Source: Escherichia phage 21. From it: a stretch of 42,931 bases of DNA. Positions 189-28,979 of this stretch are shown here, one piece after another; position 1 is the first letter of the stretch, and every line of letters starts with the position of its first letter. The stretch lies in sequence record OL657228.1; one strand, given 5' to 3'. Both the position numbers and the translations under genes were made by a program. Below the pieces are notes generated by a model, which saw only the letters and a program-made list of their open reading frames with translations, was not told the origin of the DNA and did not search any database.

Positions 189-737
189 ATGAAGGTTAAT
201 AAAAAGAGGCTTGCCGAAATTTTCAACGTGGACCCGCGGACGATTGAACGCTGGCAGTCTCAGGGACTCCCTTGCGCCTCCAAAGGTAGTAAGGGCATTG
301 AATCTGTATTTGATACTGCCATGGCAATTCAGTGGTATGCGCAGAGGGAAACTGATATCGAAAACGAAAAGCTCCGCAAAGAACTGGACGATTTGCGTGC
401 GGCAGCGGAGTCAGATTTACAACCCGGCACCATTGACTATGAACGCTACCGGCTCACAAAAGCGCAGGCAGATGCGCAGGAACTGAAAAATGCCCGTGAA
501 GACGGAGTAGTGCTGGAAACTGAACTGTTTACCTTCATTCTGCAACGTGTGGCACAGGAGATTTCGGGGATACTTGTGCGTGTGCCGTTGACATTACAGC
601 GTAAATATCCGGACATTTCACCATCACACCTTGATGTGGTGAAAACTGAAATCGCGAAAGCCTCCAATGTTGCAGCTAAGGCCGGTGAAAACGTGGGCGG
701 GTGGATCGATGATTTCAGACGCGCAGAAGGCAGCTAA
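189..737 (+). CDS. nu1: terminase small subunit (Nu1-like, phage-21 gp1-like)
   Basis: 182 aa; N-terminal [12 protein letters not shown]...RTIERWQ HTH and ENEKLRKE...[27 protein letters not shown] align with recalled lambda Nu1 but are clearly diverged; first gene after cos. Confidence 0.9.
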
Positions 738-21966: not shown

Positions 21967-22824
21967 CTAATTGGGTGATAACAGATCCTGTGTATGGGAG
22001 TTTCCCTTTTTGCGTGCGTTGATGCTGGTAACGGCAAACGTCATGATGAACAAAACCGCGAATAAGACGACAATCGTCGGAGCTGGTGCGCTGTCGATAA
22101 AAAAGGACAACCAGACACCAGTCATTGACACTATTACCGATATGCCAGTCGCCAGTAGGAGCGCAATATGAAAGCGTTGTGTCAGGAGTACCGCAATGGC
22201 GCCAGGCGCAATGAGCAGAGAAATGGAGAGAATGATACCTACCGCTTTCAGCGTCGCCACAATGGTCAGAGAGACCATGCACAGCAGCCCATAATGCAGC
22301 CATCTCGTATGCAAACCGCTTACCTGCGCCTGTTGATAATCAAAGCTGAACAGCAAAAAATCCCGCCATTTTACGCTAATAACAAGTGTAACCAGCCCGG
22401 CAATAATCATCGTCTGGATTATATCGCCGATGGTTATCCCGAGCATGTCGCCGAAAAGAATATGGTCAAGATGTACGTCTGGTTTGACTGCAATATACAA
22501 GATCAGACCTGCGGCAAACATGCCAGAAAAAACAATCCCCATCACTGTATCTTGCTTGATTCGGCTGTTGTCTTTCAGGTATCCCGTCGCCACCGCGCAG
22601 AATACTCCGGCGACGAATGCCCCTGTAGCCAAAGGTAACCCCAGAATCCAGGCAAGCACGATTCCAGGAAAAACCGCATGACTCATCGCGTCACCCATCA
22701 GTGCCCAACCTTTCAGGACCAGAAAGACCGACAGCAGCGCACAGGGTATGGAAACTACCAGTGAAATCAGCAGTGCGTGACTCATAAAGGTGAACTGCAG
22801 TGGCTCCAGTAATAATGCCATCAT
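21967..22824 (-). CDS. sitD: Mn/Fe ABC transporter permease SitD
   Basis: 285 aa polytopic membrane protein, paralogous to the adjacent SitC and last gene of the four-gene minus-strand operon. Confidence 0.85.
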   Translation of the reverse strand: MMALLLEPLQFTFMSHALLISLVVSIPCALLSVFLVLKGWALMGDAMSHAVFPGIVLAWILGLPLATGAFVAGVFCAVATGYLKDNSRIKQDTVMGIVFSGMFAAGLILYIAVKPDVHLDHILFGDMLGITIGDIIQTMIIAGLVTLVISVKWRDFLLFSFDYQQAQVSGLHTRWLHYGLLCMVSLTIVATLKAVGIILSISLLIAPGAIAVLLTQRFHIALLLATGISVIVSMTGVWLSFFIDSAPAPTIVVLFAVLFIMTFAVTSINARKKGNSHTQDLLSPN

Positions 22825-23678
22825 GAGCGATCCTCCAGCGCCTTATGCGCACGCCGACGATTTGCCAAAAGCCCATGGGTGGGCGCAAAGACAAATGCTA
22901 AAAGAAACAGCAGTGTCTGCGCCACCACGATGATTCCACCTGTCGCGCCGTCCAGAAAGTAACTGACCCACGCGCCGAGGAAACTGGTCACACTGCCAAT
23001 AGTTACAGCAATCATGAGCAGGCGGGGAAAACGATCGGTTAACAACCATGCTGTTGCACCGGGAGTCACCACCAGACAGATCACCAGAAAGGCACCAACC
23101 GTTTGCAGCGCCGCAACGGTCGAAACCGACAGCAGGGTGAAGAAGATGAGTTTTAATCTGCCCGGATGCAATCCAATAGCACGGGCGTGATTCTCGTCGA
23201 AAAAGGTCACCATAAGATCTTTCCATTTGAAAAAAAGCACGATGATCGAGAGAATGCCAATGATAGTGAGTTGCAGGATATCCGCCGGATCGATTGCCAG
23301 AATATTGCCCAGGACGATGGTCTGAATGTTCACAGATGTCGGGTTCAATGACACCATAAACAGCCCCAGGCCAAAAAAGGACGAGAAGATCAGACCGATG
23401 ATGGCATCTTCTTTTAAGCGGGTGCGTTGGTTAAGAAACAGCATGCTGCCCGCAGCCAGTCCGCCGGAAAAGAAGGCTCCCAGAGAAAACGGAAGCCCCA
23501 GCATATATGCCCCCGCAACACCCGGGACAATAGAGTGCGACAACGCATCGCCAATCAGCGACCAGCCTTTTAGCATCAGATAGCATGACAGGAAAGCGCA
23601 GAGACCGCCGACCATCGCCGAGACCCACATCGCATTGAGCATATATTCATAGCTGAAGGGTTCCAGTAGCACGTTCAT
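22821..23678 (-). CDS. sitC: Mn/Fe ABC transporter permease SitC
   Basis: 285 aa polytopic membrane protein with ABC-3 permease character; overlaps sitB and sitD by 4 nt. Confidence 0.85.
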
Positions 23679-24502
23679 CTTTCTTCCCTCTGCACCGCTG
23701 ACGGTCGATGAGCCACAAAAGGGCGTTCATCGTCAGTAATAATGCTTTCTTCCGAGCCGTTAAGTGTGACATGGCGCAGTACGCCGCTAAAAGCCAGCTC
23801 TAGGTTCTCGGCTGTAAAAGTGGTGTCTGTCGGCCCGCTTGCCAGGACGGTGCCTTTGACCATGACCGTATAATCGCAAAATGTCGTGACGGATCCGAGA
23901 TTGTGTGTTGAGACAAGCATCGTTTTGCCTTCCGCGCGTAACTCCCTCAACAGGCTGATGATTTTGGCTTCGGTTTTCACATCAACGCCAGTAAAAGGTT
24001 CATCCAGCAGGATCACATCACCCTGCTGTGCAATCGCTCTCGCCAGAAAGACGCGTTTCTTTTGTCCACCGGAAAGCTCGCCGATTTGTCGATGGCGAAA
24101 ATTCACCATATCGACACGTTCCAGCGCATCGGTGACAATTTGACGATCCCTCTTTTTGGCGATACGCAACATACCCATATGCCCATAGCGGCCCATCATC
24201 ACCACATCTTCCACCAGTACAGGAAATGACCAGTCAACATCTTCTGACTGAGGGACGTAGGCAACCAGGTTTTTCTGTAACGCCTGTCGCGTGGGAATAC
24301 CCAGAACAGATATCTTTCCGCTGGTCAGACGCACAAATCCCATAATCGCTTTAAACAACGTCGATTTTCCGGAACCGTTTACCCCAACCAGAGCGGCAAT
24401 AGATCCACTTGGTACTGTGAAGGATGCATCGCGCAGTGCTGTGTGCCCGTTACGCCAGGTGACAGTAACATCATTAACGACAATGCCTGCAGATTGCATC
24501 AT
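23675..24502 (-). CDS. sitB: Mn/Fe ABC transporter ATP-binding protein SitB
   Basis: Walker [13 protein letters not shown] signature LSGGQKKRV, Walker B ILLDEP. Confidence 0.9.
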
Positions 24503-25416
24503 TATTTCTCCCTTTTCCCAGCTTTAATTCCCTGTACCAGCGTACTGGTAGTAACCTTAAGAAGGTCGATATACGTCGGTACCGGGCCGTTTTCTGTGCT
24601 CAGGGAATCGACATAGAGCACACCGCCGTAGTGTGCGCCGGTTTCACGCGCAACCTGACGCGCTGGTTTATCGGAAATCGTACTCTCGCTAAAGACTGCC
24701 GGGATATGATTTTTCTTAACTATATCAACAACCTTACGTACCTGCTGCGGTGTTCCTTGTTGATCGGCATTAATCGGCCACAGATAAAGCTCTTTTAGCC
24801 CCAAATCGCGTGCGAGATAAGAAAAAGCCCCTTCACTGGTGACCATCCATCGCTGATTCTCAGGGAGTTCCGTAATCTGCTTACGCAGGGGGGCAAGGGT
24901 TTGGGTAATCTTGGCTTTATAAGTATCGGCATTGCGTTGGTAGGTTTGTGCATTTGCCGGATCGTATTTTATCAACGCATCACGAATATTATCGACGTAA
25001 ATCAGAGCATTATCTGGCGACATCCATGCATGGGGGTTAGGTTTGCCCTCATAGGGTCCTTCGGTGATCCCTACAGGCGTCACACCCGAAGAGACAATTA
25101 CTTCTGGAACCCCATTGAGATGCTGGTAAAAGCGTTGGAACCACAATTCCAGATTCATACCATTGGCGAGAATCAGTTGTGCCCCCTGCGCACGTTTAAT
25201 ATCGCCAGGGGTAGGCTGATACTCATGAATTTCTGCACCAGGCCTGGTTATGGATGAGACTTCTGCAGCATCTCCCGCCACGTTTTTGGCCATATCCGCG
25301 ATGATGGTAAATGTTGTAATGACCTTGAATTTTTCAGTTGCACTTGCCTGAAATGCGATCGAGCAGGTGAGTGCGAGGCCCCCCAAGAGCATGGTTACTT
25401 TTTTTATTGAGTGCAT
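24502..25416 (-). CDS. sitA: periplasmic Mn/Fe-binding protein SitA
   Basis: 304 aa with N-terminal signal peptide ([26 protein letters not shown]); first gene of the operon; resembles cluster A-I metal-binding proteins. Confidence 0.88.
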
Positions 25417-25990: not shown

Positions 25991-26114
25991 AAGTGAACGA
26001 GGTTATGCTTGTCTTATATTATCCTCTATTTTAAAAACATCAGCTGGTTGTGTAAGAGTTTTTATTGTTTTATCTTGTTGACTTTGCTTTTATGAAAACA
26101 GAGTGATTGATACA

Positions 26115-26873
26115 ATGAAAACCTTAAGTGGGAAAGAGTTTAGGAAATTATTTAATCGTTATGAGACAGGATTCTATCTAAGTGAGTTTGAATACTTAAA
26201 GGACTTTGATCCTTTGTTTCCTGAATGCGTAGGGAAAGAATTAAAGTTGGGTTATAAACGAAAAGTTGATGTATGGTGCGAAGAGGATGCTGCGCTATAT
26301 GCAGAATTTATAGCTACAAAAGAAAGGCTGAAAAGAGGCCGGTTAATCCTAAAAATAAACCAAGTGTGGTCGCGTGTATATCCTGCTTATATTTATGCAA
26401 TTGAAGAAAGAATAAATGTCAGGGCAAAGGGGAGAGAGTCATTTAAGTATGAAACTGTGCAAGAAAAACAATGTAAACTTTCCATAATGTTAGATGGTCT
26501 GAAAGACCTTGAATGTGAAATAGCTATGATTTCAAGTGAGTTTGAAATTGAAAAACACTCTATGCACTATTTTTATATGATTTTTGATATTGAACGCTAT
26601 ATAAATGACTGCAGTTACTTTGTTTTTTCTGCTGCTAAAGTTGTTAAAGGCGTGATTCAATGCATTGGTTACATTGACAAAAATAACAAAGCAAGTTGCG
26701 ATGAATTTTATTCAGGCAGCTATGAATGCTTGGATGATGATCAGGAAACACTGAACTATTTAAATGAATCATGCGCAGAGGGTATAGACGCTGATAAAGA
26801 TCTCATCAGGAAGAATGAGTTATTAGCCTTATCCCTGAAGGAATTGTATCAACTTCTCGTTTCAAAAAAATAA
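26115..26873 (+). CDS. hypothetical protein, AT-rich orphan cargo gene (no recognisable family)
   Basis: ORF track 26103..26873; probable ATG at 26115 (MKTLSGKEF). Visibly AT-rich, Lys/Glu-rich with 9 Cys; TTGACT -35-like hexamer about 30 bp upstream; lies between the IS remnant and attP. Confidence 0.6.
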   Translation: MKTLSGKEFRKLFNRYETGFYLSEFEYLKDFDPLFPECVGKELKLGYKRKVDVWCEEDAALYAEFIATKERLKRGRLILKINQVWSRVYPAYIYAIEERINVRAKGRESFKYETVQEKQCKLSIMLDGLKDLECEIAMISSEFEIEKHSMHYFYMIFDIERYINDCSYFVFSAAKVVKGVIQCIGYIDKNNKASCDEFYSGSYECLDDDQETLNYLNESCAEGIDADKDLIRKNELLALSLKELYQLLVSKK

Positions 26874-27203
26874 CAAGTAATACGGCGAGCGATATGACGT
26901 GCCATGGGATATCCGCACCCAGCAGCATGTTGTCTCCACGATGTCCGCAGTTCGCTCATAATAGACATTCACTACAGTTATAGTAGAAGGTATGCATGCT
27001 GCTGAGTGGGGAAAGTGTGAAAGAAAAGAAGACAGCTGCTTTGTTTGTCGTCACGTTTATCTTCATTGGCTATGCAAGTCGTAATACAAGGCGGGACAAA
27101 ACTGAGACACATAAGGCCTCGCAATGGCTTGCAAGGCCACACATGTATTGAGATGTTAATAAAATGTAGACTTGTAATTTTGATATAAATGGTAGAGAAA
27201 ATC

Positions 27204-27214
27204 TTTCCCCAAAA
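27204..27214 (+). repeat. arm-type integrase binding site (P arm), TTTCCCCAAAA
   Basis: Same motif as the three tandem copies at 27565..27600 (approximate coordinates). Confidence 0.6.
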
Positions 27215-27332
27215 TAAAAACGAACGTCAATGAAATCAAACGGTTGAATAAAGTTGATTTTGGCTAATACAAAGACAAGAAAATAATATTTATGATTAAA
27301 TATCAGCGAGTTGAATACATAATTTTTATATA

Positions 27333-27497
27333 CTGCTGCGCCATATGGGCTGGACTGAAGCCGCAGACCTGATTGTTAAAGGTATGGAAGGCGCAATCAA
27401 CGCCAAGACCGTAACCTATGACTTCGAACGTCTGATGGAAGGCGCTAAACTGCTGAAATGCAGCGAGTTTGGTGACGCGATCATCAAAAATATGTAA
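27333..27497 (+). other. icd': phage-borne icd 3' end (replacement C-terminus of isocitrate dehydrogenase)
   Basis: In-frame translation ...[54 protein letters not shown] is the Icd C-terminus with a few substitutions, followed by a hairpin terminator (ACGGGCGT...ACGCCCGT, about 27520..27545). Confidence 0.85.
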
Positions 27498-27564
27498 TTA
27501 CCACATGTGTTAAATATTATAACGGGCGTATAACACGCCCGTTGTTTTATGATGATGTAAAATC

Positions 27565-27600
27565 TTCCCCAAAACTTTCCCCAAAACCCTTCCCCAAAAC
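27565..27600 (+). repeat. three tandem arm-type integrase binding sites (P' arm), consensus YTTCCCCAAAAC
   Basis: cttccccaaaac / tttccccaaaac / cttccccaaaac in direct tandem just inside the int 3' end (approximate coordinates). Confidence 0.7.
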
Positions 27601-27610
27601 TGGCTATTTT

Positions 27611-28753
27611 CTATGCTGTTTTGATATCTACGATAATCCAGTCTTTACCACGATCATCATTGTATCGGTCGGTCATTTTTCTGGATTTATGGCCTAACAA
27701 CTTTTGCGTATCCAGACCCTGTTCCCGATATAATCGTTCTGACAGAGATCGCTGTTCATGAAATGTGGGCGCAGTTCCTTGCTCCCATTTTATGCCACAT
27801 TTTTCCTTGGCCTTTTTAAAAGCCGTTGTCAGAGTATTTGCAGAAACCTGGTCTCCTCTGTTTGCTTGAGAGGTAGTGTGACGGTAATGGACCAGATATT
27901 TACTAACAACAGCATCCCTGCACTGAGATATAACTTCACGAAGGGTAATATTCAGAGCATCGCATTTCAGGTTAAGCGGAATAGCAAGTTTTGAACCGGT
28001 TTTTTCCTGAGTAATGTGCAACATGTCGTCCCATATATCAGAGAATTTCAAATTGCAGATATCGCCTAAACGTTGTCCAGTAACAAGAGCAAGTAGCATG
28101 CCGCATTTTAAATAGGGCTGCCGTCTGCTTACGCTTTCAAATATTGCCTGCCATTCGAGCAGTGACAATCTTTGGCGGTTTACTCGATTTCGCGGTTGTT
28201 TTGTTGCCTGCGCTGGGTTAAATCCTGGCGGAACATGTCCTGCGTGTTGTGCTTCTTTGAAGACGTCGATCAACACCATTCTCACGACTTGCGCCATCCT
28301 GTTATGACCTTCAGCCTTTACAGCATCAATTATTTCGGCAATATCAAGTGCGGTAATATCCTTGAGGTGTTGCATTCCACAATGCTCACGGAAAAGACGA
28401 ATGGGTTTGCCTTTTTGCCGATAGGAGTTGGGTCTTAGTTCATTATGTTGCAGCCTGTCCTCCTGGATAGAAATATATTTATCAAGCCATTCTGTCACCG
28501 TAATGTCTGAGCGCCTGCCTTTCATTCTTTCCAGACGCTCATTGACGCTTAATATTTGTCTGGTACGTTGTTCAGCAATAATGGTATTTGCTTCAGTAGC
28601 AACTTGTTTTGCTTCATTCTCATCAGTTCCTAAGCTATGAAAACGACCGGATAGTGGATGTTTGTATTGCCAATATACCTTTCCGGTTCGCTTATCTAAT
28701 TTGCAATATAAATTGGGTATAGAGATTTTGTGAGATCGGGGTCTAGCAGCCAT
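27611..28753 (-). CDS. int: tyrosine integrase (lambda-type, icd-targeting)
   Basis: 380 aa; N-terminal arm-binding-like domain, C-terminal catalytic region with ...HEQRSLSERLY...LLGHKSRKMTDRY (R..H..R..Y); adjacent to attP and xis. Confidence 0.92.
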   Translation of the reverse strand: MAARPRSHKISIPNLYCKLDKRTGKVYWQYKHPLSGRFHSLGTDENEAKQVATEANTIIAEQRTRQILSVNERLERMKGRRSDITVTEWLDKYISIQEDRLQHNELRPNSYRQKGKPIRLFREHCGMQHLKDITALDIAEIIDAVKAEGHNRMAQVVRMVLIDVFKEAQHAGHVPPGFNPAQATKQPRNRVNRQRLSLLEWQAIFESVSRRQPYLKCGMLLALVTGQRLGDICNLKFSDIWDDMLHITQEKTGSKLAIPLNLKCDALNITLREVISQCRDAVVSKYLVHYRHTTSQANRGDQVSANTLTTAFKKAKEKCGIKWEQGTAPTFHEQRSLSERLYREQGLDTQKLLGHKSRKMTDRYNDDRGKDWIIVDIKTA

Positions 28754-28979
28754 CAGCGATTATCCGTTGGAGTTTTGGGTTTGCGTTTATTGGGAGTTGC
28801 GGTTCTGCAAGCGTTCCTACAAAACGGGAATTTCGGTCAATCATCCAGTAGCGACCAACTTTTATAGCGGGTGGGGCCATCATTTTCCCTTGCGCGTATT
28901 TTTTCAGAACTCGCTCACTTGGTGCTAAGTCCCCAAATTCTTCTTTAGCCCAGTCCTGTAAAGTGATTAGTCGAGACAT
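28743..28979 (-). CDS. xis: excisionase
   Basis: 78 aa immediately upstream of and overlapping int; winged-helix-like (LITLQDWAKEEFG...IKVGRYWMI). Confidence 0.8.
   Translation of the reverse strand: MSRLITLQDWAKEEFGDLAPSERVLKKYAQGKMMAPPAIKVGRYWMIDRNSRFVGTLAEPQLPINANPKLQRIIADGC

What the first reader, a model, noticed from the sequence alone, without database searches (positions are those of the whole stretch)
27190..27610. attP built around a phage-borne copy of the icd 3' end, with four arm-type repeats and the icd terminator
The segment 27333..27497 encodes the last about 50 residues of isocitrate dehydrogenase with a few substitutions (e.g. ...MEGAKLL...AIIKNM), followed by a hairpin terminator. 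It is flanked by TTCCCCAAAA(C) repeats: one near 27204 and three tandem copies at 27565..27600 abutting the int 3' end. This is the architecture expected for an icd-integrating phage (as established for phage 21 and e14), where integration replaces the host icd 3' end with the phage version.
Basis: partly seen in the sequence, partly recalled or inferred. Interest (0 to 1): 0.5.

Follow-up and report, generated by a model that had tools for sequence, protein, structure and literature searches.

The report
Phage 21 attachment site in icd

Summary
It is already known. Window 27100-27700 is 100% identical to GenBank M61865, the phage 21 int/xis/icd record.

- **icd copy:** bases 27334-27550 (217 nt) copy the last 165 nt of icd plus its terminator. 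They are 86-95% identical to host alleles, and the peptide matches many host Icd C-termini exactly.
- **Repeats:** TTCCCCAAAA occurs exactly four times in 42.9 kb (0.13 expected). One copy is at 27205. Three tandem copies lie at 27565-27599, 11 nt from the int stop codon.
- **Integrase:** Int has the lambda arm-binding domain.
- **Crossover:** lysogens place it at the extreme left edge of the icd copy (27334-27343, probably a 7-bp overlap TGCTGCG). In Nissle 1917 and 118UI the attL block is identical to free-phage attP (0/217 differences), while attR keeps the host version. The whole icd copy therefore lies in the P' arm.
- **Other genera:** across about 50 loci in Enterobacterales, the order is always icd stop, hairpin, two to four roughly 12-bp repeats, int stop. 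The repeat motif changes together with the Int N-terminal domain. e14 has the same 1+3 layout with its own motif.

Novelty: none for the finding itself.

The parts
27204..27215 (+). P-arm arm-type repeat TTTCCCCAAAAT. It is the single distal copy, about 130 bp left of the crossover, analogous to lambda P1.
   Evidence: Exact TTCCCCAAAA at 27205. It is invariant in six related attP sequences. e14 has its own motif, GGTTATCAAAAC, at the homologous position about 126 bp from the core.
27234..27246 (+). IHF consensus site AATCAAACGGTTG in the P arm.
   Evidence: This is the only exact WATCAANNNNTTR match in the whole 42.9-kb window. e14 has an exact consensus, AATCAATGAGTTA, at the aligned position. 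Binding was not tested.
27301..27313 (+). Second IHF-like site TATCAGCGAGTTG, with one mismatch to the consensus, about 25 bp left of the core.
   Evidence: In phage 4A7 the same position reads TATCAATGACTTA, a perfect consensus. This is inferred only.
27328..27346 (.). Core region: ATATAC (27328-33), a proposed 7-bp overlap TGCTGCG (27334-40) and CCATAT (27341-46), forming an imperfect dyad. Strand exchange takes place here.
   Evidence: The left limit is the homology boundary with icd at 27334. The right limit is the first attL/attR difference at 27344 in Nissle and in K-12 e14. The 7-bp overlap and the half-sites are inferred by analogy with lambda.
27334..27550 (+). Phage-borne replacement of the icd 3' end. 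It comprises 164 nt of coding sequence (54 codons with base 27333) plus the 3' UTR and terminator, and it forms most of the P' arm.
   Evidence: Ungapped at 86-95% identity to host alleles. It is identical to attL of lysogens. The peptide is identical to Icd WP_000444487.1-type C-termini.
27519..27545 (+). icd intrinsic terminator hairpin. By pattern it also looks like a terminator on the minus strand.
   Evidence: Its stem is identical to the host terminator.
27564..27600 (+). Three tandem P' arm-type repeats: CTTCCCCAAAAC, TTTCCCCAAAAC and CTTCCCCAAAAC, spaced 12 and 13 bp apart. They are analogous to lambda P'1-P'3.
   Evidence: They are invariant in the related phages except the partial D2 record, where the third copy is gapped or reads N. 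They are conserved next to int in 24 loci from many genera, and they covary with the Int N-domain.
27611..28753 (-). int: a lambda-type heterobivalent tyrosine integrase of 380 aa.
   Evidence: PF09003 arm-binding domain at residues 1-71 (E 1.8e-28) and PF00589. Full-length match to lambda Int structure 1z1b (E 8e-55). 100% identical to phage 21 Int.
28743..28979 (-). xis: excisionase of 78 aa, overlapping the start of int.
   Evidence: PF07825 with E 6.7e-6, above the curated cut-off. Annotated as xis in M61865.

Best explanation
This is the attP site of phage 21, a lambda-type attachment site of about 400 bp (27204-27600).

**Binding and assembly.** Int binds the four TTCCCCAAAA arm-type repeats through its N-terminal arm-binding domain. 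It binds core-type half-sites flanking a short overlap at 27334-27340 through its core-binding and catalytic domains. IHF, at 27234-27246 and probably also at 27301-27313, bends the P arm.

**Strand exchange.** Exchange with the identical sequence in the host icd gene takes place 165 nt before the icd stop codon. This would truncate a needed gene. The phage therefore carries, immediately to the right of the crossover, a 217-nt replacement consisting of the last 54 codons of icd plus the icd terminator.

**After integration.** The host 5' part of icd is fused in frame to the phage copy (attL). The original host 3' end is left as a pseudogene at the far end of the prophage (attR).

**Consequence for the site.** The three P' arm repeats have to sit beyond the replacement segment. 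The P' arm is therefore about 230-265 bp long, and attP is much larger than lambda's.

**Shown here:** identity to phage 21, the junction structure in lysogens, bracketing of the crossover to 10 bp, the Int domain composition, and the repeat statistics and covariation.

**Inferred:** the exact 7-bp overlap, the core half-sites, IHF binding, and physical binding of Int to the repeats.
For: - 100% identity over 601 nt to M61865 (phage 21), and Int 100% identical to phage 21 Int.
- The icd block spans 27334-27550.
- Nissle attL equals ev017 attP, and 118UI attL equals 2E9 attP, each with 0 of 217 differences. The attR blocks differ at 16 and 8 positions, the first at 27344 in Nissle.
- e14 in K-12 joins at the same TGCTGCGCCA.
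- The P' arm plus int end is present in 1679 of 5426 complete E. coli genomes. The P arm is present at 80% coverage or more in 1464.
- Int carries PF09003 and PF00589 and is homologous to lambda Int.
- The repeats occur 4 times against 0.13 expected.
- The only exact IHF consensus of the window lies in the P arm.
- In 50 of 80 loci from other Enterobacterales, int lies directly after icd, with a hairpin and 2-4 tandem repeats between them.
- The repeat motif tracks the Int N-domain signature in 50 of 51 loci. The four motif classes are TTCCCCAAAA, TTATCAAAA, CTGCAAAA and CAGTAAAA.
- e14 has 1+3 copies of its own motif at the same positions.
- Literature: phage 21 replaces 165 bp of the icd 3' end (PMC4129442, citing Campbell et al. 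1992). icd is a well-known prophage site with an extended identity block (PMC10111431).
Against: No binding or recombination experiment can be run here.

The 7-bp overlap and the half-sites are assigned by analogy. The data only bracket the exchange to 27334-27343 in one lysogen lineage, and to 27334-27409 in another.

No IHF-like site with one mismatch or fewer was found in the long P' arm. How that arm is folded back onto the core is therefore not explained by sequence.

One locus (L036) has a 21-type Int N-domain next to e14-type repeats.

The primary paper on the in-vitro limits of this attP (Wang et al. 1997, PMC179457) could not be read. Its numbers are quoted from memory only.
Confidence: 0.93

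Rival explanations
1. The crossover lies elsewhere in the 217-nt identity block. For example, it could lie near the terminator, at a lambda-like distance of 30-60 bp from the three repeats. The icd copy would then be mostly P-arm or passenger sequence.
For: Identity blocks cannot by themselves locate a crossover, as PMC10111431 notes for icd. In lysogen 118UI the first attL/attR difference is only at 27410. The lambda P' sites sit much closer to the core (established knowledge).
Against: In Nissle 1917, attL carries the ev017 attP allele from 27344 through 27550 without a single difference. attR carries a different allele from 27344 onward. K-12 e14 shows the same pattern. A crossover at the right end would make the phage-borne icd copy unnecessary. 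It would also leave the host allele at attL, which is the opposite of what is seen.
Confidence: 0.03
2. The TTCCCCAAAA repeats are not Int arm sites. They would instead bind another factor (Xis, Fis or a host protein), or act on the 3' end of the int transcript.
For: No binding data are available here. The three copies lie in the int 3' UTR on the opposite strand. Xis sites in lambda are also direct repeats (established knowledge).
Against: The repeat motif changes in step with the Int N-terminal (arm-binding) domain in 50 of 51 loci. The layout of one distal P copy plus three tandem P' copies mirrors lambda P1 plus P'1-3. e14 repeats this layout with a different motif. A Providencia phage with 69% identical Int and an unrelated neighbouring sequence keeps the same motif beside int.
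Confidence: 0.04
3. The icd fragment is a functionless relic of an old aberrant excision (a captured pseudogene). It would play no part in keeping icd intact.
For: M61865 and RefSeq label such fragments 'pseudogene'. In the free phage it has no promoter or 5' part.
Against: In lysogens the phage copy is the in-frame 3' end of the only complete icd gene. Nearly all differences between phage copies are synonymous. The encoded peptide is identical in phages 21, ev017, 2E9 and 4A7 despite 12-15 nucleotide differences between 21 and ev017 or 2E9. The same arrangement is kept across many genera.
Confidence: 0.02

Closest known systems
Phage 21 attP (GenBank M61865; Campbell, Schneider and Song 1992; Wang et al. 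1997 J Bacteriol 179:5705)
   Same: The sequence is identical over 27100-27700, and Int is identical. It shows the same 165-nt icd replacement as described in PMC4129442. From memory of the 1997 abstract (unverified): repeated dodecamers were proposed as arm sites, the minimal attP was 366-418 bp, and a block of about 209 bp was icd-homologous. These agree with the 397-bp span between the outermost repeats and the 217-nt block measured here.
   Different: Nothing of substance differs. The icd pseudogene coordinates in M61865 (537..700) are given on the wrong strand numbering.
e14 cryptic prophage att site in E. coli K-12 (icd / icdC)
   Same: It uses the same crossover point, TGCTGCGCCA, 165 nt before the icd stop. 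It has the same layout: one arm repeat about 126 bp left of the core and three tandem repeats after the icd terminator. The P arm is colinear, with an IHF consensus at the same place.
   Different: Its relatives in the scan are the loci with Int about 57-60% identical to phage 21 Int, and intE-annotated phage integrases are about 50% identical. The arm motif is GGTTATCAAAA instead of TTCCCCAAAA. int is separated from the P' repeats by ymfD, ymfE and lit.
Phage lambda attP (P1, P2, H1, H2, core, H', P'1-3)
   Same: Int has the same three-domain architecture and is homologous over its full length. xis overlaps int, and attP lies just beyond the int 3' end. There are three tandem P' arm sites next to int and a distal P site. 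The P arm holds an IHF consensus.
   Different: Int is only about 35% identical. The target lies inside a protein-coding gene rather than between genes. A 217-nt gene replacement is inserted between the core and the P' sites, so the site spans about 400 bp against about 240 bp. No H'-like IHF site was found, and no clear inverted P2-like copy.
Integrases that target the 3' part of tRNA or tmRNA genes and restore it (for example P4, P22 and many islands)
   Same: The logic is the same: attP carries a replacement for the displaced 3' end of the target gene (PMC10111431, PMC7192596).
   Different: Here the target is a protein-coding gene, and the replacement block is unusually long.

Membership tests
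Phage 21 attP (icd-integrating lambdoid phage) | Sequence identity with the deposited phage 21 int-xis-att region | tested here: met
   100% over 601 nt to M61865.1. Int is 100% identical over 380 aa.
Phage 21 attP (icd-integrating lambdoid phage) | A phage-borne copy of the last 165 nt of icd that replaces the host copy on integration | tested here: met
   The block spans 27334-27550. attL of Nissle and 118UI equals free-phage attP with 0 of 217 differences, while attR differs.
Phage 21 attP (icd-integrating lambdoid phage) | Prophage junctions in lysogens lie in icd | tested here: met
   Nissle 1917 and 118UI. The P' arm plus int is present in 1679 of 5426 E. coli genomes, and the listed hits for the P arm overlie icd-fragment annotations.
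Lambda-type (heterobivalent tyrosine integrase) attP | Integrase with an N-terminal arm-DNA-binding domain plus a tyrosine recombinase catalytic domain | tested here: met
   PF09003 at residues 1-71 (E 1.8e-28) and PF00589 (E 1.2e-23). Lambda Int 1z1b, E 8e-55.
Lambda-type (heterobivalent tyrosine integrase) attP | Repeated arm-type sites on both sides of the core, different in sequence from the core | tested here: met
   4 exact copies against 0.13 expected, one in the P arm and three in the P' arm.
Lambda-type (heterobivalent tyrosine integrase) attP | The arm-type sites are bound by the Int N-domain | not testable with these tools
   Only indirect evidence is available. The repeat motif covaries with the Int N-domain signature in 50 of 51 loci.
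Lambda-type (heterobivalent tyrosine integrase) attP | A 7-bp overlap flanked by inverted core-type half-sites, identical in attP and attB | tested here: inconclusive
   The exchange is bracketed to 27334-27343. An imperfect dyad ATATAC/CCATAT surrounds TGCTGCG. The 7-mer matches between attL and attR in both lysogens examined, including the variant TGTTACG. Cleavage sites are not mapped.
Lambda-type (heterobivalent tyrosine integrase) attP | IHF site(s) in the arms | tested here: inconclusive
   There is an exact consensus at 27234-27246 and a one-mismatch site at 27301-27313 in the P arm. None was found in the P' arm. Binding was not tested.
Lambda-type (heterobivalent tyrosine integrase) attP | An excisionase gene next to int | tested here: met
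   PF07825 for ORF 28743-28979.
e14 attP | e14-type Int and its GGTTATCAAAA arm repeats | tested here: not met
   Loci carrying the TTATCAAAA motif have Int about 57-60% identical, and intE-annotated phage integrases are about 50% identical. The window has TTCCCCAAAA, not TTATCAAAA. It shares the target and layout with e14 but belongs to a different specificity class.

The most novel reading that the evidence does not exclude
The finding itself is known, but two by-products may not have been described systematically.

(1) The 7 bp at the crossover exist as two synonymous alleles. TGCTGCG is found in phage 21, ev017, and both junctions (attL and attR) of Nissle 1917. TGTTACG is found in phage 2E9, in both junctions of lysogen 118UI, and in the empty site of strain MB30. 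If this 7-mer is the overlap, the alleles would divide E. coli strains and icd phages into integration-compatibility groups.

(2) Across Enterobacterales, the icd-targeting integrases fall into at least four classes. In each class the arm-repeat motif and residues about 7-24 of Int change together. This gives a natural read-out of an arm-recognition code.
Probability: 0.3. Interest if true: 0.3.

Novelty: already known. Interest (0 to 1): 0.1.

Why it matters
This is a classic case of a phage inserting inside a protein-coding gene without destroying it. It explains why icd 3' ends are mosaic in E. coli populations. It also explains why about 31% of complete E. coli genomes carry a prophage, or a remnant of one, at this locus. 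That prophage often brings cargo such as the sitABCD metal transporter. No new biology is established by the finding itself.

Tried and rejected
- **Primary papers:** Wang et al. 1997 (PMC179457) and Mehta et al. 2004 (PMC331406) are not held. The in-vitro attP limits are therefore quoted from memory and flagged as such.
- **Further arm copies:** no further degenerate arm-type copies were found in the P arm. With up to 3 mismatches to the 12-mer, only the four known copies fall in the site, and the window-wide count (35) is at chance level (40). An inverted ATTAGCCAAAAT at 27256-27267 has 4 mismatches and was not counted.
- **IHF in the P' arm:** no site with one mismatch or fewer was found.
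- **Rfam scan of 26800-27800:** only a sub-threshold hit over the terminator (tpke11, 21.6 bits against a gathering score of 43). Rejected.
- **Providencia phage PSTCR8lys:** searched for a P-arm copy and an icd fragment. Neither was found in the stretches fetched.
- **Allele frequencies of the 7-mer:** two 71-nt BLAST queries gave counts confounded by partial matches, so they were not used.
- **Script access:** the first script could not see the E. coli loci. Later scripts could.

Full report
**1. What is in the sequence**

The window reads as a lambdoid phage genome.
- Bases 1-25000 are 100% identical to the virion-gene half of phage PhiR63_2.
- The right part matches lambda imm21 hybrids at 98% identity.

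Around the finding, the ORF map shows three genes:
- int at 27611..28753 on the minus strand, 380 aa.
- xis at 28743..28979 on the minus strand, 78 aa.
- A short plus-strand ORF at 27345..27497 whose product is the C-terminus of isocitrate dehydrogenase.

The 601 nt from 27100 to 27700 are 100% identical to GenBank M61865.1, 'Bacteriophage 21 icd pseudogene, xis and int'. The encoded Int is 100% identical to phage 21 Int. The finding is therefore the phage 21 attachment site itself.

**2. The icd copy and the terminator**

I aligned the window with empty icd sites (strains MB30 and LD27-1), with both prophage ends of Nissle 1917, and with both ends of e14 in K-12.
- Homology begins at 27334 (TGCTGCGCCA...) and ends at 27550 (...GTTGTTTTAT). 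That is 217 nt without gaps.
- Identity to different host alleles is 86-95%.
- The block holds the last 54 codons of icd and the stop codon (27333-27497). This is the same 165 nt that K-12 annotates as the displaced pseudogene icdC.
- It then holds the 3' UTR with the icd terminator.

The terminator hairpin (27519-27545) folds at -20.7 kcal/mol with z = -3.8. It matches the terminator pattern on both strands.

The peptide differs from K-12 Icd by D->E and E->K. It is identical to the Icd C-terminus of many E. coli strains.

**3. The repeats**

TTCCCCAAAA occurs exactly four times in 42,931 bases, all on the plus strand, at 27205, 27565, 27577 and 27590.
- Shuffles give 0.13 on average and never reach four.
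- The three right-hand copies are tandem, spaced 12 and 13 bp apart, and end 11 nt before the int stop codon.
- Allowing mismatches adds no further copies in the site.

**4. Where the crossover is**

Nissle 1917 carries a prophage at icd with the layout below:
- a complete icd gene, followed by the terminator, the three repeats and int (here cut by an IS element);
- the phage genes, then sitDCBA and a hypothetical gene;
- the P arm joined to a displaced icd fragment at the far end.

Strain 118UI has the same layout with an intact int.

I compared the 217-nt blocks position by position.
- Nissle attL is identical to the attP of free phage ev017 (0 differences). Nissle attR differs at 16 positions, the first at 27344.
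- 118UI attL is identical to the attP of free phage 2E9 (0 differences). 118UI attR differs at 8 positions, the first at 27410.
- K-12 e14 attL and attR also differ from 27344 onward.

Homology with the host starts at 27334. The exchange therefore took place within 27334-27343.

The local sequence ATATAC-TGCTGCG-CCATAT is an imperfect dyad around 7 bp. By analogy with lambda, I propose TGCTGCG (27334-27340) as the overlap. This last step is inference.

The consequence is that the whole icd copy and the terminator lie in the P' arm. The three P' repeats sit 230-266 bp from the overlap, and the single P repeat sits about 130 bp on the other side.

The span between the outermost repeats is 397 bp. 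From memory of the abstract of Wang et al. 1997, the minimal attP was 366-418 bp and included the outermost 'dodecamers'. I could not retrieve that paper.

**5. Are the repeats Int arm-type sites?**

*Int domain composition.* Int has the lambda arm-DNA-binding domain (PF09003, residues 1-71, E 1.8e-28) and the tyrosine recombinase domain. It aligns over its full length with lambda Int structures.

*e14.* e14 uses the same crossover point with a roughly 50-60% identical Int. It has three tandem GGTTATCAAAA repeats right after the icd terminator, and one copy about 126 bp left of the core. Its P arm aligns colinearly with that of phage 21, with the repeat and an exact IHF consensus at the same positions.

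*Survey of other species.* A scan of one genome per species returned 80 Int relatives at 50-99% identity.
- In 50 of them, int lies directly after icd. In 5 more, icd lies within 1.5 kb.
- The intergenic stretch is always icd stop, hairpin, two to four tandem repeats of about 12 bp, then int stop.
- The repeat motif falls into four classes: TTCCCCAAAA, TTATCAAAA, CTGCAAAA and CAGTAAAA.
- Each class goes with its own signature in Int residues about 7-24: (S/T/A)HKIxIPNLYxKLDKR, KNNVxxPNLYPLxSRK, KYNVxIPGLSCYTDAR and KHNIxVxNLFCFxDPR respectively.
- The signature and motif agree in 24 of 24, 14 of 15, 8 of 8 and 4 of 4 loci.

*Providencia phage.* Phage PSTCR8lys has a 69% identical Int and a completely different neighbouring sequence. 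It still has TTCCCCAAAA copies beside int.

Together these points make binding by the Int N-domain by far the best reading. Binding itself is untested.

**6. Accessory sites**

- The only exact IHF consensus (WATCAANNNNTTR) in the whole window is at 27234-27246, in the P arm.
- A one-mismatch site at 27301-27313 becomes a perfect consensus in phage 4A7.
- No comparable site was found in the P' arm. A loop of about 230 bp may not need one, but this is open.

**7. Spread**

- The P' repeats plus the int end are present in 1679 of 5426 complete E. coli genomes. The P arm is present at 80% coverage or more in 1464.
- Among related free phages, both arms are almost invariant. The icd block is where they differ, and nearly all those differences are synonymous.

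**8. Comparison with what is known**

- The literature held here states that phage 21 replaces 165 bp of the icd 3' end (PMC4129442, citing Campbell et al. 1992).
- It states that icd is a well-known prophage site (PMC10111431, PMC12803456).
- It states that icd has an unusually long identity block that restores the gene (PMC10111431, PMC7192596).
- The specificity difference between phage 21 and e14 at the same attB is the subject of Wang et al. 1997, cited in all of these papers.

What this check adds:
- exact coordinates;
- placement of the crossover at the left edge of the icd copy;
- the comparative evidence for the arm sites.

**9. Verdict**

This is a real feature, correctly interpreted, and already known. 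Interest is low. The side observations are listed separately. They include two matched alleles of the crossover 7-mer, the covariation between arm motif and Int N-domain across genera, and an inverted terminator loop in some alleles.

Noticed in passing
window 27334-27340; L091 (phage 2E9), L096/L097 (118UI attL/attR), L003 (MB30 attB): The 7 bp at the crossover occur as two synonymous alleles. TGCTGCG is in phage 21, ev017, both Nissle junctions and K-12. TGTTACG is in phage 2E9, in both junctions of lysogen 118UI and in the empty site of MB30. If these 7 bp are the overlap, phages and hosts would fall into integration-compatibility groups.
   Followed up: partly
L010-L089, region between icd stop and int stop: Across many Enterobacterales genera, icd-adjacent integrases fall into four classes. 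In each class the tandem repeat motif (TTCCCCAAAA, TTATCAAAA, CTGCAAAA or CAGTAAAA) goes with a distinct Int N-domain signature at residues about 7-24. The one exception is L036 (Providencia alcalifaciens). It has a 21-type N-domain with e14-type repeats, and it lies 13 kb from a second integrase (L037) on the same contig.
   Followed up: partly
window 21967-25416 (-): A four-gene sitABCD-type manganese/iron ABC transporter lies between the tail-fibre region and attP as phage cargo. The sitB match is above the NCBIfam equivalog cut-off. The same operon is in the same place in the Nissle 1917 and FXCREC028 prophages.
   Followed up: partly
window 27115-27138 (-): A strong hairpin on the int-sense strand lies just beyond the P arm (-23.7 kcal/mol, z = -3.7). 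Lambda has its sib/tI retroregulator in the same relative place. The stem bases are not kept in phages 4A7 and D2, so its function is doubtful.
   Followed up: partly
window 27527-27537; L091, L094, L096: The loop and closing bases of the icd terminator (GTATAACAC) are exactly inverted (GTGTTATAC) in phage 2E9, phage D2 and attL of 118UI. The stem is unchanged.
   Followed up: no
L005 (E. coli FXCREC028, NZ_CM135822.1 198580-211180): A chromosome holds an intact P-core-P' junction. sitDCBA and the P arm lie on one side, and the repeats, int and xis on the other. The genome has four matching places. This looks like two prophages in tandem at icd.
   Followed up: no
L001 (GenBank M61865.1): The record annotates the icd pseudogene at 537..700. 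That stretch translates to nonsense. The icd copy is at 536..700 of the reverse complement. The coordinates appear to have been given in the numbering of the other strand.
   Followed up: yes
L094 (phage D2, OM475427.1, partial genome): Directly after the P-arm repeat, the record switches to icd sequence from upstream of the crossover. It also contains Ns in the third P' repeat. It is probably an assembly chimera of attL and attR from a lysogen.
   Followed up: no
L003 (MB30 empty attB); L002, L096: An unoccupied icd site (MB30) carries a phage-type 3' end, 95% identical to phage 21. It encodes the same Icd protein accession (WP_000444487.1) as the hybrid icd of lysogens Nissle and 118UI. This is consistent with past lysogeny, or with recombination leaving phage-derived icd ends in the population.
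   Followed up: partly
L007 (Providencia phage PSTCR8lys, MW057859.1 1-300): Int is 69% identical, and TTCCCCAAAA repeats lie beside int. No icd fragment is present in the adjacent 200 nt. The arm specificity is the same, but the target is apparently different.
   Followed up: partly
window 26103-26873 (+): A 256-aa ORF lies just left of the P arm with no Pfam or NCBIfam match. A 771-nt hypothetical-protein gene sits at the same position next to attR in Nissle 1917 and FXCREC028.
   Followed up: no
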